The notes: generated by a model not told the origin, from the letters alone. Shown: positions 12,359 to 34,949, counted from the first letter of the stretch. The stretch: DNA of 39,041 bases from a virus (IMGVR_UViG_3300038379_000173:128001-167041), one strand, 5' to 3'. Numbers and translations are program-made.

Positions 12359-12359
12359 A

Positions 12360-18081: not shown

Positions 18082-18089
18082 GGTGGAAC

Positions 18090-19862: not shown

Positions 19863-19927
19863 GTAGCCAAGGGTCGGCCGACCTAGCGCTTTTGCACTAG
19901 GGTCCCGTTCAAATCGGGAGGCTACCA
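19863..19927 (+). ncRNA. tRNA-like element A (non-canonical)
   Basis: GTAGCC/GGCTAC acceptor-like stem ending in CCA; T arm TCCCG-TTCAAAT-CGGGA; palindrome GGTCGGCCGACC in place of D arm; TAGCGC-TTTT-GCACTA in place of anticodon arm. Confidence 0.65.
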
Positions 19928-20058
19928 TTACGGAGGGTTTATCGTGAAGGCGCGAGCCGCGTTCCTCGCCAGGGCGGAAGGGGCGCAGAGCTAAAGGGGC
20001 GCGGAGCTAAATACTCCGCGTTCTTATTTTGCAAGTTTCGTGGCGCAAAGGGGTAACA

Positions 20059-20226
20059 ATGGAAACCACCATCCGTTGGTGGCCACTTCGCAATCGTTAC
20101 AGTTACGACCGCATCTATGACGCAAAGGTGCGCGTCCGCGCGCTGTGGCGCTATATCCGCGATACGGACCGCGTTGGGTTCGACACTGCGCGGCAGTTTG
20201 CCGTGTACGTGGCGCTCAAGGGGTAG
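20059..20226 (+). CDS. Hypothetical protein
   Basis: AAGGGG RBS, METTIRWWPLRNRY... Confidence 0.55.
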   Translation: METTIRWWPLRNRYSYDRIYDAKVRVRALWRYIRDTDRVGFDTARQFAVYVALKG

Positions 20227-20267
20227 GGAGGTTAATTGCCTCCCGCCTCTGTAAGGAGAGTGACGAA

Positions 20268-20585
20268 ATGGAAAAGGTTGAGTGGAAAAGGTTGAGGCCC
20301 TGGGAAGATGCCATCTTCTCGCGTGAGATGTGCGCGTGGTGGGACGCACAGGAGATGGCTACCCGTGTCGCCGGGAGCCAAATCCCGCCCTACATCATTC
20401 GCGCAATGGTGCGCCAGGGTGTCATTCGCTACATTCCCGCGCGCCGCTTCCAGGGTATCACCCGGACCGAGCGCGCTATCGGCAAGGTCCGCCGATTCTA
20501 CAAAATCGGATTCATGGCGGACCCGCAGATTATTCGCCTATTCAAGGTGAATCACGAGGTCTACCGCTACATGATGGCCATCTAG
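20268..20585 (+). CDS. Hypothetical protein
   Basis: AAGGAG RBS, MEKVEWKRLRPW... Confidence 0.65.
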   Translation: MEKVEWKRLRPWEDAIFSREMCAWWDAQEMATRVAGSQIPPYIIRAMVRQGVIRYIPARRFQGITRTERAIGKVRRFYKIGFMADPQIIRLFKVNHEVYRYMMAI

Positions 20586-20591
20586 GCTAAC

Positions 20592-20620
20592 ATGATTCCC
20601 TGAAAGGGAACGCGGTAGCG
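20592..20620 (+). repeat. Twin-hairpin element copy 1
   Basis: ATGA TTCCCT-GAA-AGGGAA CGC-GGTA-GCG, 6 nt after a stop codon. Confidence 0.9.
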
Positions 20621-20696
20621 TGCTAAGATACGTGACACCTTAGGTTAACCGCCTAGGTGTCGCATTACTCTCGTGGGGACGGGAGAGGAGTAAGGA

Positions 20697-20870
20697 ATGG
20701 AACCTAGGGGTTTGGACGATAAGGCAGACGAGACTATCCGCCGCGCTCACGCGGAGTCGGAGCGCTTGGGGGTCGAGTACGGCACGGGCTTGGCGCTTGT
20801 TCAGGCGCAGTACCCTGCGCCTTCGGGCGACACTGAGATTCTGCCGCTGGGCACCCTTTGGATTGAGTGA
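20697..20870 (+). CDS. Small hypothetical protein (57 aa)
   Basis: Hand translation MEPRGLDDKADETIRR...; GAGGAG RBS. Confidence 0.55.
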   Translation: MEPRGLDDKADETIRRAHAESERLGVEYGTGLALVQAQYPAPSGDTEILPLGTLWIE

Positions 20871-20914
20871 ATGAATCTTGTTGGTATTTGAACGTGTAAG
20901 TGTAACAAGTGATA

Positions 20915-20943
20915 ATGATTCCCGGAACGGGAACGCGGTAGCG
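20915..20943 (+). repeat. Twin-hairpin element copy 2
   Basis: ATGA TTCCCG-GAA-CGGGAA CGC-GGTA-GCG, then GGAGA and ATG 20955. Confidence 0.9.
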
Positions 20944-20954
20944 GGAGAACAAAC

Positions 20955-21422
20955 ATGGATGAGTATATGCGCAAGCTCCAACGTCTCGTCGCTCTTGGCG
21001 ACCTTGCCGCACGCCAAGCGCTCAAGGTTGCTGAGGAGCGGGCGTATGTTCCGTGCCAGGAATGCGGGGCATGCCCTACGTGTCTCGGCTGCGATTGCGG
21101 GGCCGAGCCATTCAATCGGTGGTGTCGGTGTCTGCGCCCACGCGCACCACTTACTGTCCGCCAACTTCGCGGACTGCCCTACGGGGTAATGATTTTCCAT
21201 GGGACCATGCGTCAAGGGTCCGCCGGCCGCGCATATCCCTTCAGGGTGCGCGTGACAGGGGTATGTAAGACGTGGAAGCGAGACCCGGAGCGTTGGCGCC
21301 TTCCTGTCAAACACGGACTAAGGGATAGCGCTTATCTCGGCTCGCCGGGCGAGCAAACGGCGGACGTTGAAAACGTTTGGTATTTGGCAGAACACGATGC
21401 CATGAAACATGGGAGTAGTTAG
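20955..21422 (+). CDS. Hypothetical protein with Cys cluster
   Basis: GGGAG RBS; CQECGACPTCLGCDC; C-terminal RVTGVCKTWKRDPERWRLPVKHGL. Confidence 0.7.
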   Translation: MDEYMRKLQRLVALGDLAARQALKVAEERAYVPCQECGACPTCLGCDCGAEPFNRWCRCLRPRAPLTVRQLRGLPYGVMIFHGTMRQGSAGRAYPFRVRVTGVCKTWKRDPERWRLPVKHGLRDSAYLGSPGEQTADVENVWYLAEHDAMKHGSS

Positions 21423-21504
21423 ATGACTCATTGCGGGCGTATCGCAAAGAACGTTAATGGTAAGCTTGTCTGCAAGGTTTGTGGGAAGGTTGTCAAGGGA
21501 TAAT

Positions 21505-21533
21505 ATGATTCACCGATAGGTGAACACGGAGTG
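21505..21533 (+). repeat. Twin-hairpin element copy 3
   Basis: ATGA TTCACC-GATA-GGTGAA CAC-GGA-GTG; directly after the TAA of a 26-aa ORF (21423-21503), ATG at 21543. Confidence 0.9.
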
Positions 21534-21609
21534 AGTGAAAAGATGTGGCATGCTGCGTTGGTCCAAGTCTACAGGCTCAAAGGCGGTAACGAAGAGGGCG
21601 GATGGTGGT

Positions 21610-21636
21610 ATGACTTCCCGTAGGGAACCCAGAGGG
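21610..21636 (+). repeat. Twin-hairpin element copy 4 (divergent)
   Basis: ATGAC TTCCC-GTA-GGGAA CCC-AGA-GGG, ATG at 21638. Confidence 0.7.
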
Positions 21637-21637
21637 C

Positions 21638-22141
21638 ATGGTGAAACAGTTCACTTTCAATCTGCGCAACAAATCCTCCCCCCAAGCTCACGAGCACATC
21701 ACCTTGCGCTTTCATAACGGAGCGGTAGAAGCCCTAAGTAGGGATGACATCAAGAGTGTCTGCCCTACTTGGGAACACGTTGGCGAGTACGTTGACGGCG
21801 CCGTGTTTTTCAGACCTTCTAAGGTCCCAGTGAAGCTGTTGGAAATTGCTGCCACTGGGCTCTTTATGCGCGGCTGGCGCGTCCGTGGCGCAATGTGTCG
21901 ACCCCCGGTGGAAGGTCGGGGTTACGATGTGGAGATTATCCCATCGGGCGCCATAACTAATCCCGATAGTCTCAAGGGTAATATCCGCCATCGCTCCGCT
22001 TCGCTTGGTAGCGTGGGAAAGGGTGAGCGCGGCGCCGCGACCTTCGGGGCGCGCTATAAGACGGACCCTCAGGCAATGCGAGATGCGATTCGCGAGCGTG
22101 AGCTTGCGCGTCTCCTAACCGATAAGTGGATGGAATCTTAA
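21638..22141 (+). CDS. Hypothetical protein
   Basis: 167 aa ORF bounded by element copies 4 and 5. Confidence 0.7.
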   Translation: MVKQFTFNLRNKSSPQAHEHITLRFHNGAVEALSRDDIKSVCPTWEHVGEYVDGAVFFRPSKVPVKLLEIAATGLFMRGWRVRGAMCRPPVEGRGYDVEIIPSGAITNPDSLKGNIRHRSASLGSVGKGERGAATFGARYKTDPQAMRDAIRERELARLLTDKWMES

Positions 22142-22147
22142 GCTACA

Positions 22148-22176
22148 ATGATTCCGCAAAGCGGAACGCGGTAGCG
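22148..22176 (+). repeat. Twin-hairpin element copy 5
   Basis: ATGA TTCCGC-AAA-GCGGAA CGC-GGTA-GCG, 6 nt after a stop codon, then GGAGA and ATG 22189. Confidence 0.9.
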
Positions 22177-22188
22177 GGAGAAAAGCAC

Positions 22189-22377
22189 ATGAAAACTATC
22201 CAGATGGTCGTTGCTATCACTCTCGAAATGGATGATGATGTTAACCCTGCATTCTGCGGGTTGGATTCTAAAACGTTCAGCTTGTATTCTAAGGATGGCG
22301 ATGGTATTTCGCCTCTTCTTTACAAATGGCAGGAATACGAAACTATTGATATTCTTGATTTGACTGACCCCAAATAA
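22189..22377 (+). CDS. Hypothetical protein
   Basis: GGGAG RBS, MKTIQMVVAITLEM... Confidence 0.65.
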   Translation: MKTIQMVVAITLEMDDDVNPAFCGLDSKTFSLYSKDGDGISPLLYKWQEYETIDILDLTDPK

Positions 22378-22391
22378 ACCGGAGGAACGCA

Positions 22392-22598
22392 ATGGAAAAT
22401 GTCATCCTAAGCTGCCGCGTCTGCGGACGACCGCCCCCGGTCGGATTCACCGTCACTTGTGGGGAGTCTTTCTGCCAGGAAGCGGACTACCTGCGGAGCC
22501 TAGAGCGGCGGTCGCGCCGCGGGTCCCGCGCCCGCGCTGAGGCATCCGCTCGTGCTGTCGCGGCCGAGGAATCAGCCCGAAAGAAGGCTGCACCATGA
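22392..22598 (+). CDS. Small Zn-finger-like protein
   Basis: GGAGG RBS; CRVC...C...C. Confidence 0.6.
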   Translation: MENVILSCRVCGRPPPVGFTVTCGESFCQEADYLRSLERRSRRGSRARAEASARAVAAEESARKKAAP

Positions 22599-23020
22599 AT
22601 ATTGGCGATTGGGTTGAATGGGTTCACAGATATGAAGGTGGGCACATCTATAAGGTAGGCAAGGTCATCGGTATGCATATCCTCGGGCCGCGCGATGATA
22701 TTGTTGTCATCGTAGCGGAGGATTGCCTTGTTGGTCGCGAATGGAAACTGAGGCAGGATGAGGATGACGTGAGGGTCATTCCGAATCCGTGCGCATATTG
22801 TGGGGGGCGCGTAATGAATTGGCGCGTCGAAAGACATTCCGGGCGCGGCTCAATGACACATGGATGGCGCGTCATATATGACGGTCCAGAGTTAAGCTCC
22901 GCCATTGATGTATATAACAAAACTCTCATTAGAATGCGCCAGGGTGGGGTTAGATTCATTGACCCCTCTGGAACCGTCAGACATGAAGCGGTAGCACCAC
23001 GTTGCCGTACGCGTTGGTGA
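22595..23020 (+). CDS. Hypothetical protein
   Basis: ATGA coupling to upstream gene. Confidence 0.6.
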   Translation: MNIGDWVEWVHRYEGGHIYKVGKVIGMHILGPRDDIVVIVAEDCLVGREWKLRQDEDDVRVIPNPCAYCGGRVMNWRVERHSGRGSMTHGWRVIYDGPELSSAIDVYNKTLIRMRQGGVRFIDPSGTVRHEAVAPRCRTRW

Positions 23021-23260
23021 TGTATTGACTCTAAGTGCAGCGGACCTCTAAAAATCCGCTGCATTATCTCCCCTAGAATATTCGGCCAGGTTCAATGGGT
23101 CGAAGGAACGACGAACGTTTTTTCTAGGGTTTCTAATAAAGCCGAGCCAAGTTGACGTTAACGGATAGGTAGACGGGGATTTGTAGTGTTCCGGCTTATC
23201 TAAACTGGCAAGTGCCAGGGGGTAATATGTCCATTTGATATCTTTTCACACTCATTTCGG

Positions 23261-24186
23261 TGGCGCGCAAATGACATTCGGATTTTCACGGTTACGTTTG
23301 TTTGTGCAACACTTGGGTAACAAAACGTCCTTTATGGGATTGTTTGCGTAACAACATGCTAAAGCTCGCCTTATACGTGCTCAGGCGGCCCGAGAGAAGA
23401 AAAGAGAATACGCGCGTTCGCATATGCGTAGGAAGAGAATAAAAGCACGCGAGGATAAAAAGAAAGCTGAGGCTAAGGCGCGCGCCGCTGAGTATAGGCG
23501 CCAACAAGAGATGTGGAGCGCCCCGCCTCCCGAGGATGAAGGTCCATCGACCCGACCTTGTAGGAAAGATGAGAGAGTTTGTTAGGCATTATGTTACGTA
23601 AACTTTTCGCAAACTTTTTAATGGCGCGCAAATGACACGTGTAACAACGCAGAAACGCAAATGCTCCTATTCTATTGCGTGCTACGGCACTTTTCACTCA
23701 TTTTCTTCTCTTTTCATCTCTCGTTCAGAAAACGAGGCGCAAATGGTCCGGATTTTTTGCGGTCCTTCGTGGGATTTTTCGTTTACTTTTCATGCGACGC
23801 AAATGGCCCTTATGAAGCGCAAAAGAACTTTTCAGGGATACGTTCCATATGAAATGAAACGGACCGGTATTGGGAGCGTATATGGCTAGCCATATAGAAC
23901 GCCTGGGGGCGCGCGTATAAGAAACAAGGTGGGCGAAATAACGCGGCGCGTGACGTTTGACGCGGAGCATTACGCTCTCGGAAGCTTTTCACGAGACGCA
24001 AAGGAGACTGAGTGAATTGTATCACTTTTGGGCCTTGAAAACAAAGGACTTAGGACGTGGAACAGGATTTAGTGGGCTATATTTCGCATTACGGGAAGGT
24101 AACACGGTAAAGCACTGTGGTATAAGCACTTAGATGTCCTTCCCTCCCAAGCACTTAGCTCAACCCGTTACCGCTAGGTAACTTAG
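23261..24186. repeat. Non-coding region with two families of short direct repeats (iteron-like)
   Basis: CGCAAATG at 23266, 23627, 23656, 23738, 23798; ACTTAG at 24048, 24128, 24153, 24181. Confidence 0.6.
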
Positions 24187-24319
24187 GCATCTTCGCCCGC
24201 GTGGTCTTACCCTTGCGATGTCTGTCATTGTTCACAGTGAGGTTGGTAAACGGGACAGTTCCAGCTACCCCTCGTATATGTCAAGCAATTACCATTTTCA
24301 ATGGATAAATTGCGTCATA

Positions 24320-24352
24320 ATAATTCGGCCCGTCAGGGTCGAACGCGGAGCG
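24320..24352 (+). repeat. Twin-hairpin element copy 6
   Basis: ATAA TTCGGCCC-GTCA-GGGTCGAA CGC-GGA-GCG, ATG at 24362. Confidence 0.85.
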
Positions 24353-24361
24353 AGTAAAAAG

Positions 24362-24679
24362 ATGCGGATTAAGATTGCCGACAAGCGCTTGCGTGCGCGT
24401 GCGGACGCGCCTCGCGAGCGCAGTATCGACGCGGACCTTTCCCCTGTGGCAAGGTTCGACACTCCGGCCGACATCCGCGCGATGAAGCTGCGGTCCTTCA
24501 GCCCGCACACCAAGAAGCCCCCGAAGCCCGCTAGGGAGCGCAAGCGTATCGTGATTCTCGCCCGTCCGACCCCGGTCCGCCGCCCCACCCTGGAGGAATT
24601 CGCATCCGCCCTCGCACTCCTCAATTCAAATGAAAACGCAGTGCGTGCGCATAACCTCAAGGTCGGTAAGGTCCGCTAG
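24362..24679 (+). CDS. Highly basic hypothetical protein
   Basis: R/K/P-rich 105 aa, MRIKIADKRLRARAD..., between element copies 6 and 7. Confidence 0.65.
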   Translation: MRIKIADKRLRARADAPRERSIDADLSPVARFDTPADIRAMKLRSFSPHTKKPPKPARERKRIVILARPTPVRRPTLEEFASALALLNSNENAVRAHNLKVGKVR

Positions 24680-24714
24680 TCAATTCATACCCGCCCCCAC
24701 ATTAAAATGTAAAA

Positions 24715-24741
24715 ATGATTCCCTCTGGGGAACGCGGAGCG
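24715..24741 (+). repeat. Twin-hairpin element copy 7
   Basis: ATGA TTCCC-TCTG-GGGAA CGC-GGA-GCG; precedes the ncRNA cluster rather than an ORF. Confidence 0.85.
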
Positions 24742-24759
24742 GGCTTCAAGTTTCAAATA

Positions 24760-24829
24760 AGTAATCCTATGGATAGGCGCCTGTAGCTAGCAATAGCTTG
24801 GGCTGGCGGGTTCAATTCCCGCATTACTG
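24760..24829 (+). ncRNA. tRNA-like element B (non-canonical)
   Basis: AGTAAT/ATTACT acceptor-like stem; T arm GCGGG-TTCAATT-CCCGC; CCTAT-GG-ATAGG D-like hairpin; AGCTA-GCAA-TAGCT capped arm. Confidence 0.65.
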
Positions 24830-24836
24830 TTAGTTA

Positions 24837-25645
24837 GACGCGCACGGAAATATAAGCGCCCAACGGCTCGCGCCGGAGGGATAGAGCTTGCTCGCAAGCT
24901 GCCGCTTATATTTTCCCAGGCGTCGAAGCGAGCGGGAATTCCCCTAAGGGGATGAAACGCGCCCGGCCTAACGGCTGGTATAAATGCTGGGCAGCGAAGG
25001 CCCAACGTAGCACGGGAAAAGATACCCGGCCGCTCTCTATCCATCCTGATTGAATCTGCAAGGCTAGCGACACTAAGCCTTTATGGCTTGTGAGCGCGAG
25101 GCAATACCGCCTTGCAATGTAGGTCAGGACGAATATCAGAGCCCACGGTATCCAACCCGGACGGGTTAAGTGTTCATGCCAAAACACTCATCCGCGACAA
25201 TCCTATTGATGTTTGTTGGATTGGTAAGGTCTACCTCCCAATTCAATAAATTGACATTGGATAGGTCACGGTTCCGAAAGGTCCACTCGCTAACGCGGGG
25301 CCCCGAGCAAGGGTAAGCGATAATGCTTACATTCTGCCGCGACAGGGTGCCAGGGCCGCTCCGATAGGCTAATGGGCTTGCTATGCAAGATTAAACCCGC
25401 GAAATGCCAAAAGGTGCGGTAGGGCTTAACTATCATTGAGAGATAGCGGACCACAGTAGGAATCGAAGATGCGGCAGCGACAATAAGTCCTGCATCTTGG
25501 ATGTAAAATAACTCATAGGGAAGCATTATCCAAATGCTGACCCGAAGGGGTGGGGGTTAACAATAAGCTCTCGCAGGAGTAGGGAGCGTCATGACACGCC
25601 GTGTCATGGCCACGCTCTTTTGTTAACTCCGAGACTCCACCTGTC
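24837..25645 (+). ncRNA. Candidate large (about 800 nt) highly structured ncRNA
   Basis: No credible ORF; continuous nested helices with G-T pairs on the plus strand (see findings); flanked by tRNA-like elements. Confidence 0.7.
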
Positions 25646-25699
25646 GCATAACAAACCTAAACGTGATATATAACGCAAGGTAATTATGCGCCAGAAAGT

Positions 25700-25760
25700 A
25701 GAATGTCCGGGCCGGCCGGCTTGCGTTCGCGCATGATAGGTTCAATTCCTATACATTCTA
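25700..25760 (+). ncRNA. tRNA-like element C (61-nt mini-tRNA)
   Basis: 7-bp AGAATGT/ACATTCT acceptor plus A; T arm ATAGG-TTCAATT-CCTAT; palindrome GCCGGCCGGC; TGCG-TTCG-CGCA arm. Confidence 0.7.
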
Positions 25761-25849
25761 TCGCTCCAACGCTCAGTGTCTACGCATACGTTGCAGCGAG
25801 CCGTGCCATGAGTTTGTAGTATAGGATTGGTGCGAAGAAATATATTAAA

Positions 25850-26102
25850 TGTTACTAGGGATTGGGATAGTGGTCGCCCCAATGCCGAATTAGACCAAAG
25901 GCGCCAAACCTTTCTTTGGTGTAGGGGTTGTGAGCTAATAACTCATAATCCTTATTCGGATTGCTACGCGTACGGGAAACGTCTCAGAAACTCTAGTGTT
26001 GTGCTAAGTATCACAGAATAGATAATCAGTCAACAATCCTTTATCAAATGCATGTGATAAATGGGTTGGTAGAGTCTGAGGGGCTCGGCATATACTACTA
26101 CC
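25850..26102 (+). ncRNA. Second structured non-coding block
   Basis: ATTGGG/CCCAAT, CCGAAT/ATTCGG, GCGCCAAA/TTTGGTGT, AGGGGTTGTGAG/CTCATAATCCTT, TTTATCA/TGATAAA. Confidence 0.5.
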
Positions 26103-26105
26103 AAA

Positions 26106-26134
26106 ATAATTCATCGAAGATGAACGCGGTAGCG
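26106..26134 (+). repeat. Twin-hairpin element copy 8
   Basis: ATAA TTCATC-GAA-GATGAA CGC-GGTA-GCG, ATG at 26146. Confidence 0.9.
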
Positions 26135-26145
26135 AGTGTAAAAAA

Positions 26146-26328
26146 ATGATTTGGTGTATTAAATCCTCCTGGTCCTCCGGTCCAATCTCCAGGGACAACC
26201 CCGACCTTTATCTATCCGCCGATAGTAAGGATGAAGCCGAGCGGATTGCTCGGGACATTTTGAGGTTGTCAGAGTGGGGTCAGTGGACATTGGAGGTTTC
26301 TGCGGTTCTCACTGAGGAGAAATATTAA
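26146..26328 (+). CDS. Hypothetical protein
   Basis: ORF track; follows element copy 8. Confidence 0.6.
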   Translation: MIWCIKSSWSSGPISRDNPDLYLSADSKDEAERIARDILRLSEWGQWTLEVSAVLTEEKY

Positions 26329-26329
26329 A

Positions 26330-26947
26330 GTGGACCAAATCTATAATCATCCTCTGCCGCGCCGTTGTATTCGGTGTAAGACTCCGACGGGCGCGCGGTA
26401 CATTTGCGCCAAATGCAATAGGCAGGCATACGCGCCGCTTAAGAAGCCCAAGTATTGCCACCGACCCGCTGCCGAAACTGGCAAGCGTCTGACGGCTGAG
26501 CGCATGCGTGACCCCTCTGGGGTTGCCAATGTTGCCGCCATTGATACCCTCCCCGTCCTGCATAAACTCCAGGCAGCGGCCATTCTTAGTAAGTTTGGCG
26601 AGAATACTGCATTGAGCAGTTACCTTATCACGCACTATGTTGCGAAGGGTCGGGCTAATGACATTGTCACTATGACCAGCGACGGCGCGCGCTTTTTCGA
26701 ATCTGAGATTGCGCGCATTGTCGATAGCGGAGTGGTAGGTAAGTGGAATGATGATATGCGCGCGACTAAGCCCCGCGCGCAGTCTTTCACTACCAAGGAC
26801 CGCAAGGTTATCCCGCCCGAATGGACCGCAAAGCGCTCCGAATTTCAGCAGAGGTATAACGCGGCCCGCGCCGCTGCCGTTGAAGGTGGGGCCAAGGAAA
26901 TGGCCCTGAGGGCTAAGGTTTTGGAAGCTGGGGGTAGGTTTATCTAG
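26330..26947 (+). CDS. Hypothetical protein with N-terminal CxxC-CxxC
   Basis: GAGGAG RBS, GTG start, CIRC...CAKC. Confidence 0.7.
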   Translation: MDQIYNHPLPRRCIRCKTPTGARYICAKCNRQAYAPLKKPKYCHRPAAETGKRLTAERMRDPSGVANVAAIDTLPVLHKLQAAAILSKFGENTALSSYLITHYVAKGRANDIVTMTSDGARFFESEIARIVDSGVVGKWNDDMRATKPRAQSFTTKDRKVIPPEWTAKRSEFQQRYNAARAAAVEGGAKEMALRAKVLEAGGRFI

Positions 26948-28628: not shown

Positions 28629-28681
28629 GTTCCACGACAAATAAACCGGCTTCTTCCTACCCGCCTACACATTAGGCAATA

Positions 28682-28710
28682 ATGATTCGCCATAGGCGAA
28701 CACGGTAGTG
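28682..28710 (+). repeat. Twin-hairpin element copy 9
   Basis: ATGA TTCGCC-ATA-GGCGAA CAC-GGTA-GTG, ATG at 28718. Confidence 0.9.
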
Positions 28711-29055
28711 TGTGAAAATGCTATACTTTACGCCCCTAGACCTCTATCTTTGGACTCTCGGCATGGTAGCCATTGGGTTTGTTGTAGGGGCGCAAGTATC
28801 TAGATGGATAAGGAAGGGGTAAAAGTGCTACTCTGCCCACATTGTTTATTGTCGGATGAGGAAAAGTGCGAGGCGTGCGGTAAGAATGCCGGCGCAGCCC
28901 TACATACTTGTCCATTCCTAGTGGAAATTAAAGGCGACAGTAGTCTTTGTAACTGCTGTGCCGACTGTAAGAGCGAATGTTAGATGGATATCTAGAATTG
29001 GCAAGTGCTCTAAACGGAAATCGCTATGTGGTAGACGGTTGATATCACTTGAAAC

Positions 29056-29142
29056 GGCTCCGTAGCCCAATGGCCGAGGCGGGGCGCTCAAAACGCCTGA
29101 CGAACTTAAATGTTCATGTGGGTTCGAATCCCACCGGAGTCA
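29056..29142 (+). tRNA. tRNA-Leu (anticodon CAA)
   Basis: GGCTCCG/CGGAGTC acceptor, GGGCG-CTCAAAA-CGCCT anticodon arm, long variable arm, GTGGG-TTCGAAT-CCCAC T arm; CCA not encoded. Confidence 0.92.
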
Positions 29143-29161
29143 TGTCGGTTCGAAGTTGGAA

Positions 29162-29234
29162 GTATCAGTAATTTAACTAGGAAAATCTCGCAGTCAGTAA
29201 CTGCGAAATGTCGGTGCAAGTCCGGCCTGATACA
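29162..29234 (+). tRNA. Atypical tRNA / tRNA-like element D, anticodon undetermined
   Basis: Perfect GTATCAG/CTGATAC acceptor, ATTT/AAAT D stem, T arm GTCGG-TGCAAGT-CCGGC, but extended anticodon arm TCGCAG-TCAGTAA-CTGCGA. Confidence 0.7.
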
Positions 29235-29329
29235 ATGGCTTCCTATATGGTGTAGGTGGCCAATGGCCCCGCTGGGGCGCAGTTTCTTTTGTCAAATAGC
29301 TATCGACCACGCGATAGCGGGAGACCAAA

Positions 29330-29947
29330 ATGTTGAATCTGAATGACTACATCGATGCTATTGCCCTGGCCGAGCCTTCGCGCCAGGAAACCCTCTTGCA
29401 GGCTTTTGCAGCCGTTGAAGTTGGCGGCAAGCCTATCGGACTGGAGGAGCTAAAGAAGCTTTTTAATGAGCGGGCCGAGAACGCTAAGAAGCGCGCGGCC
29501 AATGCCGCTAAGCGTGCCGAACGCGAGAGTCTCAATGCTCGGCTCACTGAGCTTCAGAAGGAGGGCGCGGCCCTTTCTTTCGATTTCTCCGCTCTGACCG
29601 ATTTCGTCGGAAAGGTGGCGGCGGCAAAGGGAGAGGTTGGGCTGACTCTCAAGGACGGCAAGGTTACCATGGAGGTTTTCGGGGTGGCTAGCACTGCTAG
29701 CGCCACTAATGGCGGTGGTAGGCCCAAGAAGGATGCACCCCAGCCGTTTGTTGATTCGAATGGCGAGCGTGTCACTGGGCCGCTTACGGATTGGGCTCGG
29801 GCTAACATTAGCCAAGCAGAGCTTGATGCCGCTCCGAAGGTCGGGGGTAAGCTTGCGTCTGGTGCTAAGCTCGTCGAGTATCTGAAGAAGCTTAACTATA
29901 TCGTCGATTCGCCTGTGCCCACGCAACCGCAGGGTGCGACGGAGTAG
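29330..29947 (+). CDS. Hypothetical protein (coiled coil plus GGGRPKK AT-hook-like motif)
   Basis: 205 aa, GGGAG RBS preceded by half element CGC-GATA-GCG (29310-29319). Confidence 0.75.
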   Translation: MLNLNDYIDAIALAEPSRQETLLQAFAAVEVGGKPIGLEELKKLFNERAENAKKRAANAAKRAERESLNARLTELQKEGAALSFDFSALTDFVGKVAAAKGEVGLTLKDGKVTMEVFGVASTASATNGGGRPKKDAPQPFVDSNGERVTGPLTDWARANISQAELDAAPKVGGKLASGAKLVEYLKKLNYIVDSPVPTQPQGATE

Positions 29948-30064
29948 TTGTTTTCCCGCGGCCAATCCTTACTAGTTTGGCTGTAGGTAGCTGCCCATTG
30001 ATAACTAGGGCGGCAAATAGTACGCACGGGAGGGCACAGCGTACCAGGTGTCCTATTTAACACT

Positions 30065-30090
30065 CACTCCGTGTTCCCTAAGGGAATCAT
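30065..30090 (-). repeat. Twin-hairpin element copy 10 (inverted)
   Basis: Minus strand ATGA TTCCC-TTA-GGGAA CAC-GGA-GTG followed by AGTG as in copy 3. Confidence 0.88.
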
Positions 30091-30130
30091 TTGCACTTTT
30101 TCTAATGACGCTTGCAAGTTAAGGAGTTAA

Positions 30131-30385
30131 TTGTCCATGACACTAAGTCTTCTTAATAAATTCCTCACCCTACATAGATTTAGGGCGGTAGAGTGGGACG
30201 GACGAGAACTTATTGCCTACAGAAAAAACTCATCTGGTCTCGAACCTATGTGCTCGGCTGAATTTCCAAGCCACTCAAAAGTACGCAAGGAGATGGAACA
30301 TCTTGAGCGTCGAGTCAAACGACACAAACAATTCTACTATGAAGTAGAACCCATGAGCAATATTCGTTTGGTGGATGGCAGGTAA
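30131..30385 (+). CDS. Hypothetical protein
   Basis: AAGGAG RBS; ORF track. Confidence 0.6.
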   Translation: MSMTLSLLNKFLTLHRFRAVEWDGRELIAYRKNSSGLEPMCSAEFPSHSKVRKEMEHLERRVKRHKQFYYEVEPMSNIRLVDGR

Positions 30386-30519
30386 TGATACGTGCGAGTT
30401 AAGGACTATGGACATTTTACTAGGAGCACTTGCTGGTATTCTACTAGGTTGTTTGGTTGTTTTGGTGATTGCAATTGGATTGTCTCCGCCGCACTAATCT
30501 AAGAAAGAGCGTAACAACA

Positions 30520-30774
30520 ATGGTGCGCCTAGAAAACTGGCGATATAGTATTCGCATGTGTTTTATGCGCGACGAGTGGTGCTTAGGCGGCCAGGTTTTC
30601 GGTCATCCAGAAGTTGGACCTGGAGAGTATCGCTATGTTGGCACGCCGCGTGTGTTTGATAAATCCACCATGACTATTACGACTTGGAGTGGTAGTAAAT
30701 ACGTATTGGGCGAATGTGCGGATGATATCAACAAACAAATCGCCTATATCGAGGAAGATTGCGCGCGTAGTTAA
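30520..30774 (+). CDS. Hypothetical phage protein
   Basis: MVRLENWRY...LGGQVFGHP...ITTWSGSKYVLG. Confidence 0.65.
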   Translation: MVRLENWRYSIRMCFMRDEWCLGGQVFGHPEVGPGEYRYVGTPRVFDKSTMTITTWSGSKYVLGECADDINKQIAYIEEDCARS

Positions 30775-30800
30775 CATCACATAAGGATTTAGAATAGAAT

Positions 30801-30956
30801 ATGAACGACTTCGAAAAACTCATTGCGGCCCTCCCGGCCCACCGTTTGTATGTCGATACTGACGGCGCCCAAGGCGCTCGAATTGAGATGGTGGGCGCAA
30901 ACCTCTGGGGTGCAAATCTCAGGACTAAGGAAGAAGCATTGGCGAGCGGATTTTGA
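30801..30956 (+). pseudogene. Internally deleted pentapeptide-repeat paralog (51 aa, in frame)
   Basis: [40 protein letters not shown] joined to RTKEEALASGF*, i.e. the two ends of gene 34950-35774. Confidence 0.85.
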
Positions 30957-31051
30957 AAAAGGCCAACGAAAAGTTAATAGTATCTAAAAGAGGGTTAAGA
31001 AAACGTTGGCCCCTCGCGAATAGTTAACAAAAAACACAAAAAGGGGCGGTT

Positions 31052-31422
31052 ATGAATCGTCTAGAGCGAGGTCTAAGGGCTGCTACCAACGCGGCCCGCC
31101 TTTTACGAAGCAAAGCAGGTACCAAGTAGGCGCGGCACTTTTTAAGGGTAACCGTCTCCTATCTATCGGTTGGAATCAAAACAAAACCCATACCCGCCAA
31201 CATAGTATTTTTAGGTGGCAGCATGCCGAATTGGCCGCACTAATCGGCACGCGCAAGTGGGACCTTAGGGCGGCCACGTTGTATGTTGTGAGGATTACTA
31301 AGCGCCGCCACGTGCGCATTAGTAGGCCCTGCGAGGATTGCGAGCGCATTCTGCGGGCCGCCGGCCTGCGCCATGTTGTTTACATTGGACGGGACGGAAA
31401 GCCCGCGGAGATGACGTTGTGA
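31052..31422 (+). pseudogene. dCMP/cytidine deaminase-family gene with a frameshift near 31100
   Basis: YQVGAALFKGNRLLSIGWN...HAE...SRPCEDC is in a frame without a start codon; ATG 31052 (MNRLERGLRAATNAARL) is in another frame. Confidence 0.75.
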
Positions 31423-31551
31423 TTACATTAAATTTTGGAGTTAAACCTTCATATTCTACTATAACCGGCCAACGAAAAGTAATAAGAAAAAGCAAAAGGC
31501 GGTTGATAAGGCGTTGGCCGCCGAGCGAACAAAGTGAGCGAGGAGCGAGGA

Positions 31552-31885
31552 ATGACACCCCAAGAAATTTTCAATAAAGTGCGCGACCATCTACTCACAC
31601 AAGGCACTAAATCCTTTTCACCCCATTGTGTGCACTTACCGCGGCAGAAATAACACCAAATGTGCCATTGGATGCCTCATCCCCGATGAGATGTACAAGG
31701 AGGAGATGGAGGGAAAGAGTGCTTTCGGTCTTCATGTTCGATATCCTGAAGTCTCAGCGGCAATAGAATATTTACAATATAGCTCCTTACTTGAGGACTT
31801 ACAAAGGGTCCATGACAACAAGGATGTTAAAGATTGGCCGCAAGCCCTCAATGATGTAGCTATCAAACATGGACTTGAACCGTAA
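31552..31885 (+). pseudogene. Hypothetical phage gene split by a frameshift near 31625
   Basis: MTPQEIFNKVRDHLLTQGTKS (ATG 31552, GAGGAG) continues plausibly only as CTYRGRNNTKCAIGCLIPDE in the next frame. Confidence 0.6.
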
Positions 31886-31893
31886 GGGGTAAC

Positions 31894-32211
31894 ATGATTT
31901 GTACTAAATATAAGAAACTAACGCGCGGCCGGCCATCTTTGGATGTGCCATGTTTGGCTTGTGGGGCTATTTATAGGGAACATGGAAAGACGACATCTCA
32001 AACGTCAATTGTTAATACACCTGTTGTTATTACCCCGCCTATCGCAGTTCTCAAAGCAATTGATGAAGAAGAGAAGGACCCCGGAGTTGTGACGCAACCT
32101 GCTGCGCCCAAGTTTTTTACGCGTAAGACGACCCCAATGTTGCCGCCACTTAGAGAGTCCCTAGTGGCCGCCTTTGATTCTTTGGTGGCCAGGAATGGTA
32201 CGTTTGACTAA
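31894..32211 (+). CDS. Hypothetical protein
   Basis: AAGGGG RBS; ORF track. Confidence 0.6.
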   Translation: MICTKYKKLTRGRPSLDVPCLACGAIYREHGKTTSQTSIVNTPVVITPPIAVLKAIDEEEKDPGVVTQPAAPKFFTRKTTPMLPPLRESLVAAFDSLVARNGTFD

Positions 32212-32612
32212 AGCAATGGAGAAGAAAGTACCAGTGGACCGTATTGTACTCAAACAAACATTCGCCTACCTAACTTCCCTTCCATTTGAAGTAAGGAATG
32301 ACGAATGGGAAAGAGCCATCGAAGACATCCGTAGGATTCTAAGAGACTCGCTGTATGAGTAATAGTCATCTTGCTATTGAGCAATGCTGTGAATATGACC
32401 AATGCGGATGTTTAGTCTGCATTGAACTGCTGAGGCTATATGAACCAGATTGACCACGCGCAAGTAATCACGGCGATGGTTAACGCCATTCTTCATTTGC
32501 CCGCAAAGAACGACGAGGAATTTAAAGACCTTGTCGTGCGCGCAACGTATGAAGCGATTTTGGCGGCCCAACGTTCTAGGCTAGGTGACATCGCAAATCG
32601 ACCGCCTGCCCA

Positions 32613-32804
32613 ATGAAGCTATACACCTTCATTCTCTATATCCCATCTGGCCGCAAAGGTTGGGAGACACGCCCATCTGAAACTATGGAAGTTTGGGCGC
32701 CCGACAAAGCCGCGGCTGAAAATACCCTAGGGGTCTATTTGTCAATTAGGTGTAAGCTGCCGGCCCGCATGGAAATTGTTTCAGTAGAGGAACAAAATGG
32801 TTAA
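32613..32804 (+). CDS. Hypothetical protein
   Basis: ORF track; overlaps next gene. Confidence 0.55.
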   Translation: MKLYTFILYIPSGRKGWETRPSETMEVWAPDKAAAENTLGVYLSIRCKLPARMEIVSVEEQNG

Positions 32805-33093
32805 ATTGTCCTACACAGAATCCACTGTTCGTTTAACTACAGCAAACGACATTGATGATTTTATTTCTTTGGTCTATGGGCGCCCATTTAATTGCCGCGC
32901 AGATTCCGAGTCAGGGAATGACGTATGGCAGAAGTATATAGTAAATGGTATTGTGTTTAAGCACGAGAAAGAACAAATCGACATGTGGAATAAAGACGAT
33001 TGGGGGCTCTACCTACTTTCGTCCCTACTTAATGATTGCGCGGCCCGCAATTTGTTGCCGCATGGCATCTATTTCGTAGATATGAGTTGGTGA
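32797..33093 (+). CDS. Hypothetical protein
   Basis: GAGGA RBS; ORF track. Confidence 0.65.
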   Translation: MVKLSYTESTVRLTTANDIDDFISLVYGRPFNCRADSESGNDVWQKYIVNGIVFKHEKEQIDMWNKDDWGLYLLSSLLNDCAARNLLPHGIYFVDMSW

Positions 33094-33096
33094 TAC

Positions 33097-33657
33097 ATGA
33101 CACATCACTCTGGCAACCCGCAGAATCCCATTCGGACTCTACTTAAAGAACTTTTTAGTTCTGCCCACAATGTTAACTACCATATCTATCCGCAGTATCC
33201 GCAGTATGATGCGGAGCTTGTCCTCGACACGTATAGCCCCATAGAATGTGGCATCTTTGAATTCGAGGCTTTGGCCACCCTATTTGGTGTTCGGCCCTAT
33301 GACATCACGAGAGATGATTGGGTACAAACTACTGCAGGTTGCGATACTTGCGGTCACGGTAGTGATGGCTATGTATCCTTTAGTATTCGAAACCTAAAGA
33401 TGGATGATGCTGCGATTACCAACAATGTTGCGCTAGTCCGAGAAATGATTGGTGTAGACCGAGAGAGGCGGGCCGCTGAGGCGCGAGAAGCACACGAAGC
33501 ATATGAAAAAGCACAAGCTGGCAAAAGGGCTAAGCGTATTGAAGCTCAATTGATGGACAATGAGGATTACGCCCGTTGGCATAATGCCAAGCGCAATATT
33601 ATCAATGTAATTGATACGTTATGGGCGACTATCCGAACCAGCGACAAAAAGCTCTAG
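33097..33657 (+). CDS. Hypothetical protein with GCDTCGHG motif
   Basis: 186 aa ORF in tightly packed run. Confidence 0.7.
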   Translation: MTHHSGNPQNPIRTLLKELFSSAHNVNYHIYPQYPQYDAELVLDTYSPIECGIFEFEALATLFGVRPYDITRDDWVQTTAGCDTCGHGSDGYVSFSIRNLKMDDAAITNNVALVREMIGVDRERRAAEAREAHEAYEKAQAGKRAKRIEAQLMDNEDYARWHNAKRNIINVIDTLWATIRTSDKKL

Positions 33658-33659
33658 CT

Positions 33660-33842
33660 ATGAAAGTAAAGGATGAGCCATTGGCCGCCCTTTGGTTCAA
33701 ACTCTGGGATAATACATACGGCCGCCCAACTAACATCACAAATATTGAAGTTGTCCTAGAGTGGGCAGGCAAAACATCTAACGCCCGTGCACTTGGGCGA
33801 TGGTATCGTGAGAAGGGATTTGAAAATGAAACTGTGGCTTGA
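33660..33842 (+). CDS. Hypothetical protein
   Basis: Fills the gap between neighbours. Confidence 0.5.
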   Translation: MKVKDEPLAALWFKLWDNTYGRPTNITNIEVVLEWAGKTSNARALGRWYREKGFENETVA

Positions 33843-34692
33843 TGATAACCCCATTGATTCTAAACCCACCCCTGGGGGTCGCATCGACCCGTACATTAAA
33901 GTGCGTGCTGGCGTCCTTGCAGGTCAGGTATTCACTCCGCACAAGTGGAGTAAGGACAGGCAGTTTGCGTTTGTGCACAAGGATGGCGTAGAACACCGCA
34001 TCCATAATAAACACTTCGAAACTATCGATGGGGTCTATGTCTATTGGATACCAAGCGAAAAAGGCAAGCGTGAGTTTGTTTGGCGCGGTGCTAGTGGTTT
34101 AGAGGTTAGTGCCCATGTCACTTTCGCTCCATGGAGCGCGCCTGCTTTTCTAGGTGGGCTTCACGAAGAATGGCAAGCGCGGCGTGATTACATCAAGAAT
34201 GTCTTCGAAACTGACGATGCAATTTATATGGGGTCGGCAGTAGAGTTTGTGCGTGAAGTTATTCCGAATGAACAAAGGGTCGTAACCCCACTCATGCAAA
34301 ATCCATGCAAGGAGGTTAATGTAGAAATGAATGACAAAGGTGGCCAAATAGCAGAAAACTGCAAGACAATGATGTCTGCTACACCCAGCGTGCAAAAGCA
34401 TCGCGATGACCTAGCCGCGCACGCTGAGCGAGCTATGAATGACCTTCGGCTTAATACCGAGAGTGTTATGTATGCCGAAAAACTACGACTGATTGCTCGT
34501 ACGCGCAGGGAGCAACAGGCCCGCATGGATTTGGTCGCTCGCGAATGCGAGGCGTTAGGAGCAACGGTCGCAGAATGTGGGCCACCGGCCAACCGCATCC
34601 GCCAATTTATCTTCTATGTTCTCTGTGTTGTCCTGGCCGCCCTGTCGTATGTGGCAGTGGGGGTATGGGCGCTATATCTCTGGGGTAACTAA
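33826..34692 (+). CDS. Hypothetical protein with C-terminal transmembrane helix
   Basis: AAGGGA RBS; ends FIFYVLCVVLAALSYVAVGVWALYLW. Confidence 0.7.
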   Translation: MKLWLDDNPIDSKPTPGGRIDPYIKVRAGVLAGQVFTPHKWSKDRQFAFVHKDGVEHRIHNKHFETIDGVYVYWIPSEKGKREFVWRGASGLEVSAHVTFAPWSAPAFLGGLHEEWQARRDYIKNVFETDDAIYMGSAVEFVREVIPNEQRVVTPLMQNPCKEVNVEMNDKGGQIAENCKTMMSATPSVQKHRDDLAAHAERAMNDLRLNTESVMYAEKLRLIARTRREQQARMDLVARECEALGATVAECGPPANRIRQFIFYVLCVVLAALSYVAVGVWALYLWGN

Positions 34693-34843
34693 ACGGAAAA
34701 TACATGTCCACGACGGCCGAGACATTAAACTACTGGTCAGAACCTTGTGGGTTACTAAGGTAAACCCTCGTAACATTCCTAATGGTTCCTGCGCCATCAC
34801 GGTGGGATAATACTAAATTGTTAATAGGTATTACATCATGGTG

Positions 34844-34936
34844 TTGGCCGGTTAGAACGTTACAGGGGCACAGCGAACTTTTAACTCGCCATGTGCAATC
34901 CTGTGTAACCCGAGGTGCAATTCCTCGGCGGCTAAT
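34844..34936 (+). ncRNA. tRNA-like element E with elongated anticodon-like arm
   Basis: TTGGCCG/CGGCTAA acceptor, CCGAGG-TGCAATT-CCTCGG T arm, no D stem, long bulged helix capped by ACTTTTAAC. Confidence 0.65.
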
Positions 34937-34949
34937 TTGAAAGGAAAAT

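What the first reader, a model, noticed from the sequence alone, without database searches (positions are those of the whole stretch)
19863..34936. A family of non-canonical tRNA-like RNAs sharing one altered architecture
Seen: elements at 19863-19927, 24760-24829 and 25700-25760 have unrelated sequences but the same plan: 6-7 bp acceptor stem, perfect 5-bp T stem with TTCAAWT loop, D arm replaced by a tight palindromic hairpin with a 2-nt centre (GGTCG-GC-CGACC, CCTAT-GG-ATAGG, GCCG-GC-CGGC), and anticodon loop replaced by a tetraloop (TTTT, GCAA, TTCG). Two further variants lie at 29162 and 34844. The shared plan across different sequences argues for selection rather than random tRNA decay. 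Inference: they cannot decode, so they may be processing tags, decoys for tRNA-targeting defence nucleases or uncharged-tRNA sensors, or dimerise through the palindromes.
Basis: partly seen in the sequence, partly recalled or inferred. Interest (0 to 1): 0.78.

Follow-up and report, generated by a model that had tools for sequence, protein, structure and literature searches.

The report
Anticodon-less mini tRNA look-alikes in phage
An uncultured 167-kb phage carries at least four small RNA genes that keep the top half of a tRNA but have the codon-reading loop sealed shut. They are probably cutting marks for the host's tRNA-trimming enzymes, or tRNA mimics, rather than dead tRNA genes.

Summary
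The three core elements are real. They lie at 19863-19927, 24760-24829 and 25700-25760, all intergenic and on the gene strand. A strict acceptor plus T-arm scan finds 5 loci in the 167-kb genome, all on the + strand, against 0.09 expected by chance. A fourth member lies outside the window at genome 1969-2027.

All four keep a perfect T arm, G53-C61, a canonical T loop and a 6-7 bp acceptor stem. The D arm is a 4-bp hairpin with a small loop that contains GG in the three window elements. The anticodon arm is capped by a 4-nt loop. Rfam's tRNA model and default ARAGORN miss them.

The two "further variants" follow other plans. 29162 is a near-canonical tRNA, and 34844 has one long arm.

The same plan occurs in two related phages. 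There the interior is identical and the acceptor stem differs by three compensatory pairs, so this design is under selection.

E1 ends, and E2 and E3 bracket, roughly 850-nt ORF-poor regions that fold far better than shuffles (z = -6.7 each).

My best reading is that they are t-element or mascRNA-like processing signals for RNase P and RNase Z. Trans-acting tRNA mimics or decoys remain possible.

Tailed phages T4 and T5 already have tRNA-like stable RNAs of unknown function. This scan has also reported similar look-alikes in other phages. I class this as a new variant of a known kind. Expression could not be tested.

The parts
19863..19927 (+). E1: mini tRNA-like element of 65 nt. It has a 6-bp acceptor stem (7 if the U.C end pair at 19862 is counted), a D-like 4-bp hairpin with GGCC loop, a second helix capped by UUUU, and a perfect T arm.
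   Evidence: Sequence; fold; strict scan; alternative fold; no Rfam hit; ARAGORN calls it only at its -ps90 (relaxed score threshold) setting, with no anticodon.
24760..24829 (+). E2: mini tRNA-like element of 70 nt. It has a 6-bp acceptor stem, a D-like 4-bp hairpin with UGGA loop, a 10-bp bulged arm capped by GCAA, and a perfect T arm at 24806-24822.
   Evidence: Sequence; fold; strict scan; the only Rfam hits are a weak tRNA-Sec match and the tmRNA T arm.
25700..25760 (+). E3: mini tRNA-like element of 61 nt. It has a 7-bp acceptor stem, a D-like hairpin with GGCC loop, a 4-bp hairpin capped by UUCG, a perfect T arm and discriminator A.
   Evidence: Sequence; fold; strict scan; tRNA-Sec model 19.4 bits, E 0.69 only.
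19013..19861 (+). nc1: an 849-nt GC-rich stretch with no credible ORF that ends exactly at E1. It is a candidate large structured RNA whose 3' end E1 would define.
   Evidence: MFE -334.5 against shuffles -290.5 +/- 6.6, z = -6.7. It holds only short ORFs that overlap in different frames. Codon-usage score is negative throughout. The best sigma-70-like site of the region is at 19076-19104.
24831..25699 (+). nc2: an 869-nt stretch bracketed exactly by E2 and E3. It is a candidate large structured RNA.
   Evidence: MFE -334.5 against shuffles -284.2 +/- 7.5, z = -6.7. The longest + strand ORF is 48 aa. No Rfam family at E<=10 apart from noise.
24715..24750 (+). A copy of the dispersed twin-hairpin leader, here sitting in front of E2 instead of in front of an ORF start.
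   Evidence: Repeat family D3; regex scan finds 12 matches on the + strand of the genome, at least one of them doubtful, and 1 on the - strand, most ending 5-12 nt before a start codon.
29162..29234 (+). A near-canonical tRNA, not a member of the plan. It has a normal D arm with GG and a 7-nt anticodon loop with C at position 33 (anticodon AGU).
   Evidence: RF00005 37.7 bits, above the 29-bit cut-off; ARAGORN -ps90 calls Thr(agt).
34844..34936 (+). A different tRNA-like design: an acceptor stem, a 6-bp T stem with a UGCAAUU loop, no D arm, and one long bulged arm ending in a Lys-type loop. It lies 14 nt before a pentapeptide-repeat ORF.
   Evidence: Sequence; fold; loose scan.
29056..29142 (+). 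Canonical tRNA-Leu(CAA), included for comparison. It shares the strand and 3' context of the elements: no encoded CCA, discriminator A followed by T.
36954..37038 (+). tRNA-Arg(UCU) with a long variable arm.
38241..38312 (+). Canonical tRNA-Ile(UAU).

Best explanation
E1, E2 and E3, plus a fourth copy at genome 1969-2027, are tRNA-derived, non-decoding RNA modules.

**What they keep and what they lose.** They keep what the tRNA end-processing enzymes read: the stacked acceptor and T helix, the T loop, and a GG-bearing D-like loop in the window elements that could still form the elbow. The D loop and anticodon loop have been reduced to tetraloops.

**How they most likely work.** They are transcribed as part of long early + strand transcripts. 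Host RNase P would cut at their 5' side. Because no CCA is encoded, RNase Z would cut after the discriminator, and the host CCA-adding enzyme would then act on the released element. The elements would therefore serve as cis cutting marks, like plant mitochondrial t-elements or the mascRNA at the end of MALAT1. They would free the neighbouring RNAs: the ~850-nt structured RNAs nc1 (ended by E1) and nc2 (bracketed by E2 and E3), and the downstream mRNAs. Stable 60-70-nt mini-tRNAs would be left as by-products.

**Shown:** the structure, the excess over chance, the strand and intergenic placement, and selection on the same design in relatives.

**Inferred:** transcription, cleavage, and which enzymes act.
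For: - **Beyond chance.** A strict scan gives 5 loci, all on the + strand, against 0.09 expected.
- **Top half intact.** All four have perfect T stems, G53-C61, a T loop beginning UUC followed by a purine and A, and 6-7 contiguous acceptor pairs.
- **GG kept.** The D-like loops of E1-E3 and of the relatives' element contain GG: GGCC, UGGA, GGCC and AAGG. In the genome-1969 copy the MFE loop is GUG, and GG appears only if the closing pair opens, so that copy is ambiguous.
- **Sealing loops unrelated.** The loops that seal the anticodon arm are UUUU, GCAA, UUCG, UCAA and AAAU. Loop size looks selected, not a particular motif.
- **Selection in relatives.** G001 31623-31685 and G002 149837-149899 have the same plan. 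Their 31-nt interior is identical. Three acceptor pairs changed on both sides, one T-stem pair changed on one side, and there is no change at any unpaired position. The flanks are only ~70-85% identical.
- **Reduced forms in relatives.** The same two relatives also hold a 43-nt form and a bare 29-nt acceptor/T minihelix, each with a compensatory change. They sit between consecutive ORFs. The bare form is close to the minimal RNase P model substrate, which is established knowledge.
- **What the enzymes read.** RNase P binds the T-stem-loop and acceptor stack and measures from the elbow. RNase Z and the CCA-adding enzymes also measure from the elbow (PMC4919913).
- **Same 3' context as real tRNAs.** No CCA is encoded, and the discriminator, mostly A, is followed by T.
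- **Placement.** E1 ends nc1, and E2 and E3 bracket nc2. Both regions fold with z = -6.7.
- **Precedents.** t-elements direct RNase P and RNase Z cuts at mRNA ends (PMC1920247). In phage T5 the stable RNAs, including the 719-nt RNAX, abut tRNA genes exactly.
Against: - No expression or end-mapping data could be obtained.
- No homologs of E1-E3 themselves exist, so selection is shown only for the same design in relatives, not for these copies.
- Any tRNA gene inside an operon would be placed the same way, so placement does not separate a cis role from a trans role.
- The interior hairpins of E3 and of the genome-1969 copy are no more stable than shuffles.
- E1 and E2 have only 6 acceptor pairs, giving an 11-bp stack, or 12 with a mismatched end. 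That could shift or weaken RNase P cutting.
- nc1 and nc2 have no known family and no relatives, so they remain candidates only.
- The host, and hence its RNase P and RNase Z repertoire, is unknown.
Confidence: 0.45

Rival explanations
1. They are trans-acting tRNA mimics. The processed mini-tRNAs accumulate and occupy or divert a host factor that reads the acceptor end or elbow. Candidates are a defence enzyme that attacks or modifies tRNA ends, the CCA-adding enzyme, EF-Tu or a modification enzyme. The sealed loops would make them immune to anticodon nucleases and keep them off the ribosome.
For: They have the same conserved top half and elbow features as under the main reading. The sealing loops are unrelated in sequence, which fits selection to remove the 7-nt loop. 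The clade invests heavily in tRNAs: 42 by ARAGORN in the 1-60 kb stretch searched, and about 45 over the Rfam cut-off in the whole genome. G002 also carries an RNA-ligase-family gene. Phage tRNAs are known to be shaped by tRNA-targeting defences (PMC10264068, listed). The acceptor stem changes fast while the interior stays fixed between G001 and G002.
Against: No target is identified. Most characterised anti-phage tRNases cut the anticodon loop, which these RNAs lack, so they would be poor decoys for those enzymes. There is one copy of each sequence and no sign of high expression. The exact bracketing of nc2 is not explained by this reading.
Confidence: 0.27
2. They are tRNA pseudogenes: relics of the large tRNA set of this phage lineage that have lost function and are drifting.
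For: The relative G002 has about 45 tRNAs, while only 4 tRNA genes are recognised in this 91%-complete genome. Interior stability is not above shuffles for two of the four elements. The elements themselves have no detectable homologs.
Against: Drift should break stems as often as loops, yet acceptor and T stems are perfect in all four and the T-loop invariants are kept. Two separate, precise loop reductions recur in four unrelated sequences and in a fifth in the relatives. The relatives' copy shows purely compensatory change. The two-hairpin layout is rare in shuffles.
Confidence: 0.1
3. They are chargeable mini-tRNAs. An aminoacyl-tRNA synthetase that does not read the anticodon charges them, and they donate the amino acid to a non-ribosomal acceptor or tag.
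For: The acceptor stem and discriminator are intact. Acceptor-stem pairs 1:72, 3:70 and 4:69, which are typical identity positions, are the ones that differ between G001 and G002.
Against: No G3.U70 pair and no long variable arm is present. No synthetase, transferase or CCA-adding gene was found: PF01743 is absent from G000 and G002. This reading is pure inference.
Confidence: 0.05
4. They are chance hairpins, or DNA-level palindromes such as protein or restriction-type sites, with no RNA role.
For: The D-like segments of E1 and E3 are perfect DNA palindromes built around GGCC.
Against: Expected 0.09 against 5 observed, and all five are on the coding strand. The tRNA-specific T-loop and G53-C61 are conserved. 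The D-like hairpins of E2 and of the relatives' element are not palindromes.
Confidence: 0.03

Closest known systems
Plant mitochondrial t-elements (Hanic-Joyce 1990; Forner 2007, PMC1920247)
   Same: Both are non-canonical cloverleaves that keep a perfect T arm and acceptor stem and lie inside longer transcripts. In t-elements the borders coincide with RNA ends made by RNase P and RNase Z, and released elements carry non-encoded C and A residues.
   Different: The system is a phage rather than an organelle. Here both the D and anticodon loops are tetraloops. No ends have been mapped, so the functional likeness is inferred.
mascRNA / MEN-beta tRNA-like elements at the 3' end of MALAT1 and NEAT1 (from memory)
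   Same: It is an RNA of about 61 nt with a tRNA-like cloverleaf and a non-functional anticodon loop, placed at the 3' end of a long structured noncoding RNA. RNase P cutting defines that RNA's 3' end.
   Different: It is eukaryotic, and there is no sequence relation. nc1 and nc2 are unproven RNAs.
Phage T5 RNA1, RNA2, RNA3 and T4 rnaC/rnaD ('tRNA-like stable RNAs', function unknown)
   Same: They are non-decoding RNAs with tRNA features that sit among phage tRNA genes on the same strand. The records annotate them as stable RNAs. T4 rnaC has a canonical T arm. T5 RNA3 has an acceptor stem and ends in CCA. T5 stable RNAs, including the 719-nt RNAX, abut tRNA genes.
   Different: They are 73-144 nt long with inserts or odd loops, not the compact design with two tetraloops. 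There is no sequence similarity beyond the T arm.
Acceptor/T-arm minihelices used as model substrates of RNase P and the CCA-adding enzyme (established knowledge; elbow-ruler review PMC4919913)
   Same: The conserved part of every element is exactly this stack. Relatives G001 and G002 carry a natural 29-nt version.
   Different: The model substrates are synthetic. The window's elements keep two extra hairpins.
YrlA-type bacterial Y RNAs and the tRNA-like domain of tmRNA
   Same: Both are tRNA mimics with a T arm and no anticodon loop.
   Different: No Rfam hit to either, apart from the tmRNA T arm at 13.9 bits. No TROVE/Ro60 gene in G000 or G002. ARAGORN finds no tmRNA.

Membership tests
Canonical tRNA (Rfam RF00005) | Scores at or above the 29-bit gathering cut-off of the tRNA covariance model | tested here: not met
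   E1, E2 and E3 give no RF00005 hit even at E<=10. 29162-29234 does pass, at 37.7 bits.
Canonical tRNA (Rfam RF00005) | A 7-nt anticodon loop presenting a triplet | tested here: not met
   The loops are 4 nt in the MFE folds. ARAGORN -ps90 reports a 2-base 'anticodon' for E1.
Canonical tRNA (Rfam RF00005) | An acceptor stem stacked on a 5-bp T stem, with G53-C61 and a T loop of U, U, C, purine, A | tested here: met
t-element / mascRNA-like processing signal | A non-canonical cloverleaf with a conserved T arm, lying inside a longer transcript on the same strand as its neighbours | tested here: met
   Structure. The elements are intergenic and on the same strand as all flanking ORFs. Intrinsic terminator-like sites are not enriched.
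t-element / mascRNA-like processing signal | The element borders coincide with mapped RNA 5' and 3' ends, and non-encoded CCA is added | not testable with these tools
t-element / mascRNA-like processing signal | Cut by RNase P and RNase Z in vitro | not testable with these tools
   This needs a bench assay.
Phage tRNA-like stable RNAs (T5 RNA1-3, T4 rnaC/rnaD) | Lies among phage tRNA genes on the same strand and has partial tRNA features | tested here: met
   tRNA genes lie at 29056, 29162, 36954 and 38241 on the same strand. T5 and T4 annotation and folds.
Phage tRNA-like stable RNAs (T5 RNA1-3, T4 rnaC/rnaD) | Sequence or architectural homology to the T4 or T5 RNAs | tested here: not met
   blastn-short finds only T-arm-sized matches. 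The folds differ.
YrlA / Y RNA | A match to the Rfam model and a Ro60 (TROVE) partner gene | tested here: not met
   No Rfam hit. PF05731 is absent from G000 and G002.
tmRNA | A tRNA-like domain plus a tag reading frame and pseudoknots | tested here: not met
   ARAGORN reports no tmRNA. Only a 17-nt T-arm match to RF00023.

The most novel reading that the evidence does not exclude
This phage lineage may run a tRNA-punctuation system built from dedicated, non-decoding mini-tRNAs. Stripped-down tRNA bodies, from 62-72 nt down to a 29-nt minihelix in relatives, would be kept only as handles for RNase P and RNase Z. One of their jobs would be to excise ~850-nt ornate RNAs (nc1, nc2) of a class not in Rfam, playing a role like that of the GOLLD and ROOL RNAs found beside phage tRNA islands. 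If so, the old question of what phage tRNA-like stable RNAs are for would have a concrete, testable answer.
Probability: 0.25. Interest if true: 0.8.

Novelty: new variant of a known kind. Interest (0 to 1): 0.58.

Why it matters
Non-decoding tRNA-like RNAs have been known in T4 and T5 for decades, and nobody has assigned them a function. This compact design separates what is kept from what is discarded: the acceptor/T stack and a GG-bearing D-like loop (clear in the three window elements) stay, while the anticodon loop goes. Its placement at the borders of two large structured RNAs points to one specific mechanism that can be tested, which is cutting by RNase P and RNase Z.

The elements also show that standard tRNA finders miss a recurrent class of phage RNA genes. 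If the decoy reading is the right one instead, it would add a new kind of counter-defence. Either way, synthetic transcripts and E. coli or B. subtilis enzymes are enough for a first test, without culturing the phage.

Tried and rejected
**Searches for relatives of this phage**
- Megablast of 19000-26000 against 50,697 phage records: no match.
- Flanking ORFs 24218-24679 and 26330-26947 against IMG/VR: nothing.
- ORF 24218-24679 against 5.8 billion proteins: it found only itself.
- The Mom-like gene 18078-18752: best hit 44% identical, so no synteny is usable.
- The ribonucleotide reductase gene in metagenome contigs: best long contig 43% identical, with no tRNA-like element nearby.
- A terminase profile added one 36.7-kb fragment with no tRNA hit.
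- Early-region ORFs are not conserved between G000 and its 59-65% terminase relatives, apart from two ORFs. Syntenic homologs of E1-E3 therefore could not be traced.

**Other checks that gave nothing**
- The conserved interior of the relatives' element occurs only in G001 and G002 in IMG/VR.
- Genes for a CCA-adding enzyme, Ro60/TROVE and RtcB are absent from G000 and G002.
- Sigma-70 promoter-like and intrinsic terminator-like sites are not enriched.
- I did not build a covariance model. MAFFT could not be expected to keep unrelated sequences in structural register, and the only material to search was already in hand. I used my own descriptor scans instead.
- A codon-usage scan is too noisy in the early region to prove that nc1 and nc2 are non-coding.

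**Readings rejected**
- Dimerisation through '2-nt-centre' palindromes: the hairpin is mis-drawn.
- attP-type tRNA fragments: both acceptor strands are present.
- tmRNA and YrlA: membership tests failed.

Full report
**Setting.** The window is the last 39 kb of a 167,041-bp IMG/VR virus record, linear and estimated 91% complete.
- Positions 1-15944 carry packaging, portal and ribonucleotide-reductase genes on the - strand.
- From 16139 onward, small ORFs run on the + strand, with tRNA genes scattered among them.
- Default ARAGORN finds tRNA-Leu at 29056-29142, tRNA-Arg at 36954-37038 and tRNA-Ile at 38241-38312.
- Rfam adds 29162-29234 at 37.7 bits.

**The observation.**
- Their minimum-energy folds are an acceptor stem, two small hairpins and a T arm.
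- Each has a perfect 5-bp Watson-Crick T stem closed by G53-C61 and a T loop beginning UUCAA. The acceptor stem abuts the T stem directly, with 6 pairs in E1 and E2 and 7 in E3.
- The second hairpin is capped by UUUU, GCAA or UUCG.
- RF00005 does not see the elements even at E<=10. ARAGORN reports E1 and E3 only at its relaxed score threshold (-ps90), and E1 with no usable anticodon.

**Chance.** My strict descriptor required a perfect T stem, a T loop of U, U, C, purine, A plus two more bases, at least 6 contiguous acceptor pairs and a total length of 55-75 nt.
- It finds five loci in the whole genome, all on the + strand: E1, E2, E3, tRNA-Ile and a fourth look-alike at genome 1969-2027, outside the window.
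- One hundred dinucleotide shuffles give a mean of 0.09 loci per genome on both strands.
- The interior folding energy alone is not unusual for E3 and the outside copy.
- The layout of two side-by-side hairpins of at least 4 bp with loops of at most 5 nt appears in only 0.4-8% of shuffled interiors. It is the MFE layout of four of the five independent elements.
- In E1 the D-like palindrome competes with a longer second helix, -23.7 against -28.1 kcal/mol.

- A '2-nt centre' hairpin is not possible. The D-like hairpins are 4 bp with 4-nt loops.
- Those loops contain GG in E1-E3 (GGCC, UGGA, GGCC). This is the dinucleotide that pairs with the T loop at the tRNA elbow. In the genome-1969 copy the MFE loop is GUG, so GG there is ambiguous.
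- E2's second arm is 10 bp.
- 29162 is a near-canonical tRNA with a 7-nt loop that has C at position 33.
- 34844-34936 has no D arm and one long arm. These last two are not members of the plan.

**Relatives.** Nothing close to this phage exists in the collections searched.
- Its terminase finds five IMG/VR contigs at 59-65% identity. One is a complete 177-kb genome, G002.
- G002 has about 45 tRNA genes above the Rfam cut-off and several low-scoring tRNA-like hits.
- Early-region ORFs are not conserved between G000 and these relatives, so E1-E3 have no traceable homologs.
- The same plan does recur at G001 31623-31685 and G002 149837-149899. It has a 7-nt acceptor register, a 4-bp hairpin with an AAGG loop, a 5-bp hairpin with a 4-nt loop, and a T arm.
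- Between these two phages the 31-nt interior is identical. Three acceptor pairs are changed on both sides, one T-stem pair changes from U.G to U-A, and a C.A mismatch at 7:66 is kept. The surrounding DNA is about 70-85% identical.
- All seven substitutions fall on paired positions and keep pairing. That is the signature of a selected RNA helix.
- The same two phages also hold a 43-nt form (acceptor, 12-nt bulge, T arm) and a bare 29-nt acceptor/T minihelix, each with a compensatory change. All three forms lie in short spacers between consecutive ORFs.
- G002 further has tRNA-shaped genes with normal D arms but sealed 5-nt loops, at 155035 and 33218, and one with an extended arm at 157196.
- The lineage therefore keeps a graded series of non-decoding tRNA bodies.

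**Context in the window.**
- None of the phage tRNAs, 42 called in G002 and 4 here, encodes CCA. The base after the discriminator is nearly always T or A. The look-alikes share this context.
- No CCA-adding enzyme, Ro60 or RtcB gene is present in G000 or G002. G002 alone has an RNA-ligase-family gene.
- E1 is preceded by 849 nt (19013-19861) with no credible ORF.
- E2 and E3 bracket 869 nt (24831-25699) whose longest + strand ORF is 48 aa.
- Both stretches fold far better than shuffles, z = -6.7 each. Neither matches any Rfam family.
- E2 is headed by a copy of a dispersed twin-hairpin leader that elsewhere sits just before ORF start codons.
- Terminator-like sites are not enriched, which fits long transcripts that need processing.

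**Mechanism.** RNase P binds the T-stem-loop and acceptor stack and measures from the elbow. RNase Z and the CCA-adding enzymes also gauge from the elbow (PMC4919913). Those are the parts that are kept here, while the anticodon loop, which these enzymes do not need, is sealed by unrelated tetraloops.
- Plant mitochondrial t-elements are the closest working analogue. They are non-canonical cloverleaves with a perfect T arm whose borders coincide with mRNA ends made by RNase P and RNase Z, and they carry added C and A residues (PMC1920247).
- In phage T5 the annotated stable RNAs, including the 719-nt RNAX, abut tRNA genes exactly. RNA1-3 are annotated as tRNA-like stable RNAs of unknown function.
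- T4 rnaC carries a canonical T arm.
- ROOL and GOLLD, large phage RNAs, lie near tRNA islands (bioRxiv 10.1101/2024.12.08.627333).
- I therefore favour a cis processing role that releases nc1, nc2 and the downstream mRNAs (0.45). A trans-acting mimic or decoy role is second (0.27), drifting pseudogenes third (0.10), chargeable mini-tRNAs fourth (0.05) and chance last (0.03).
- The structure, the statistics and selection in relatives are shown. Transcription, cleavage and the enzymes involved are inferred.

**Novelty.** Phage tRNA-like stable RNAs are a known but unexplained kind. This compact design with two tetraloops, and its use as bookends of large structured RNAs, is a new variant. Earlier follow-ups of this same scan reported anticodon-less tRNA look-alikes in several other phage genomes. 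The phenomenon is therefore recurrent and not unique to this window.

**Limits.** The host is unknown. The covariation evidence rests on two sequences per element.

Noticed in passing
window 19013-19861 and 24831-25699: Two stretches of about 850 nt with no credible ORF fold with z = -6.7 each and match no Rfam family. One ends at E1 and the other is bracketed by E2 and E3. They share no sequence similarity with each other.
   Followed up: partly
window 20592, 20915, 21505, 22148, 24320, 24715, 26106, 28682 (and genome 2038, 16238, 36048): A twin-hairpin leader repeat matches 12 times on the + strand of the genome, at least one match being doubtful, and once on the - strand. Both stems covary, and most copies end 5-12 nt before a start codon. 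The copy at 24715 precedes E2 instead. The copy at 24320 suggests that ORF 24218-24679 really starts at about 24365.
   Followed up: partly
G000 genome 1969-2027 (outside the window): A fourth member of the plan, 59 nt long. It has a 7-bp acceptor stem, two small hairpins (loops GUG and UCAA) and a perfect T arm. It lies in an intergenic gap and is followed after 10 nt by a twin-hairpin leader and an ORF start.
   Followed up: partly
G000 genome 11554-11660 (outside the window): A tRNA-Lys(UUU)-like gene with a roughly 41-nt insertion in the D loop and A instead of U at position 33. ARAGORN calls it only at its relaxed score threshold.
   Followed up: no
window 19945-20020; 30782-30997; 34931-35146; 38826-39041: Just after E1 there is a ribosome-binding site, a 16-codon frame and two repeats that resemble the pentapeptide-repeat genes, so this looks like a gene remnant. 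The contig ends inside a 95% identical copy of the start of the pentapeptide gene at 34950, which probably caused the assembly break. More early region and more tRNAs may therefore be missing.
   Followed up: no
L006 (G002 149800-151200) and L012 (G001 31500-32900): A short motif of the form ACGCA-NN-TGA-S-ACG recurs many times in the early intergenic regions of the two relatives, often just upstream of the tRNA-like elements. It may be a promoter or a regulator site.
   Followed up: no
window 24686, 28656, 31189: A conserved 19-nt C-rich motif (repeat family D16) lies about 10-30 nt upstream of twin-hairpin copies. It includes a TAAAAT-like box at 24703 and is a possible early promoter.
   Followed up: no
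window 37145-38152 (- strand): An HNH endonuclease gene sits between tRNA-Arg and tRNA-Ile on the opposite strand. This resembles the homing endonucleases in the T4 and T5 tRNA regions.
   Followed up: no
G002 1-60000 (L008-L010): ARAGORN tRNA genes here, none with an encoded CCA. One call has a 4-base anticodon, at 24125-24207. Several non-decoders with sealed loops lie inside the array, for example at 33218-33284.
   Followed up: partly
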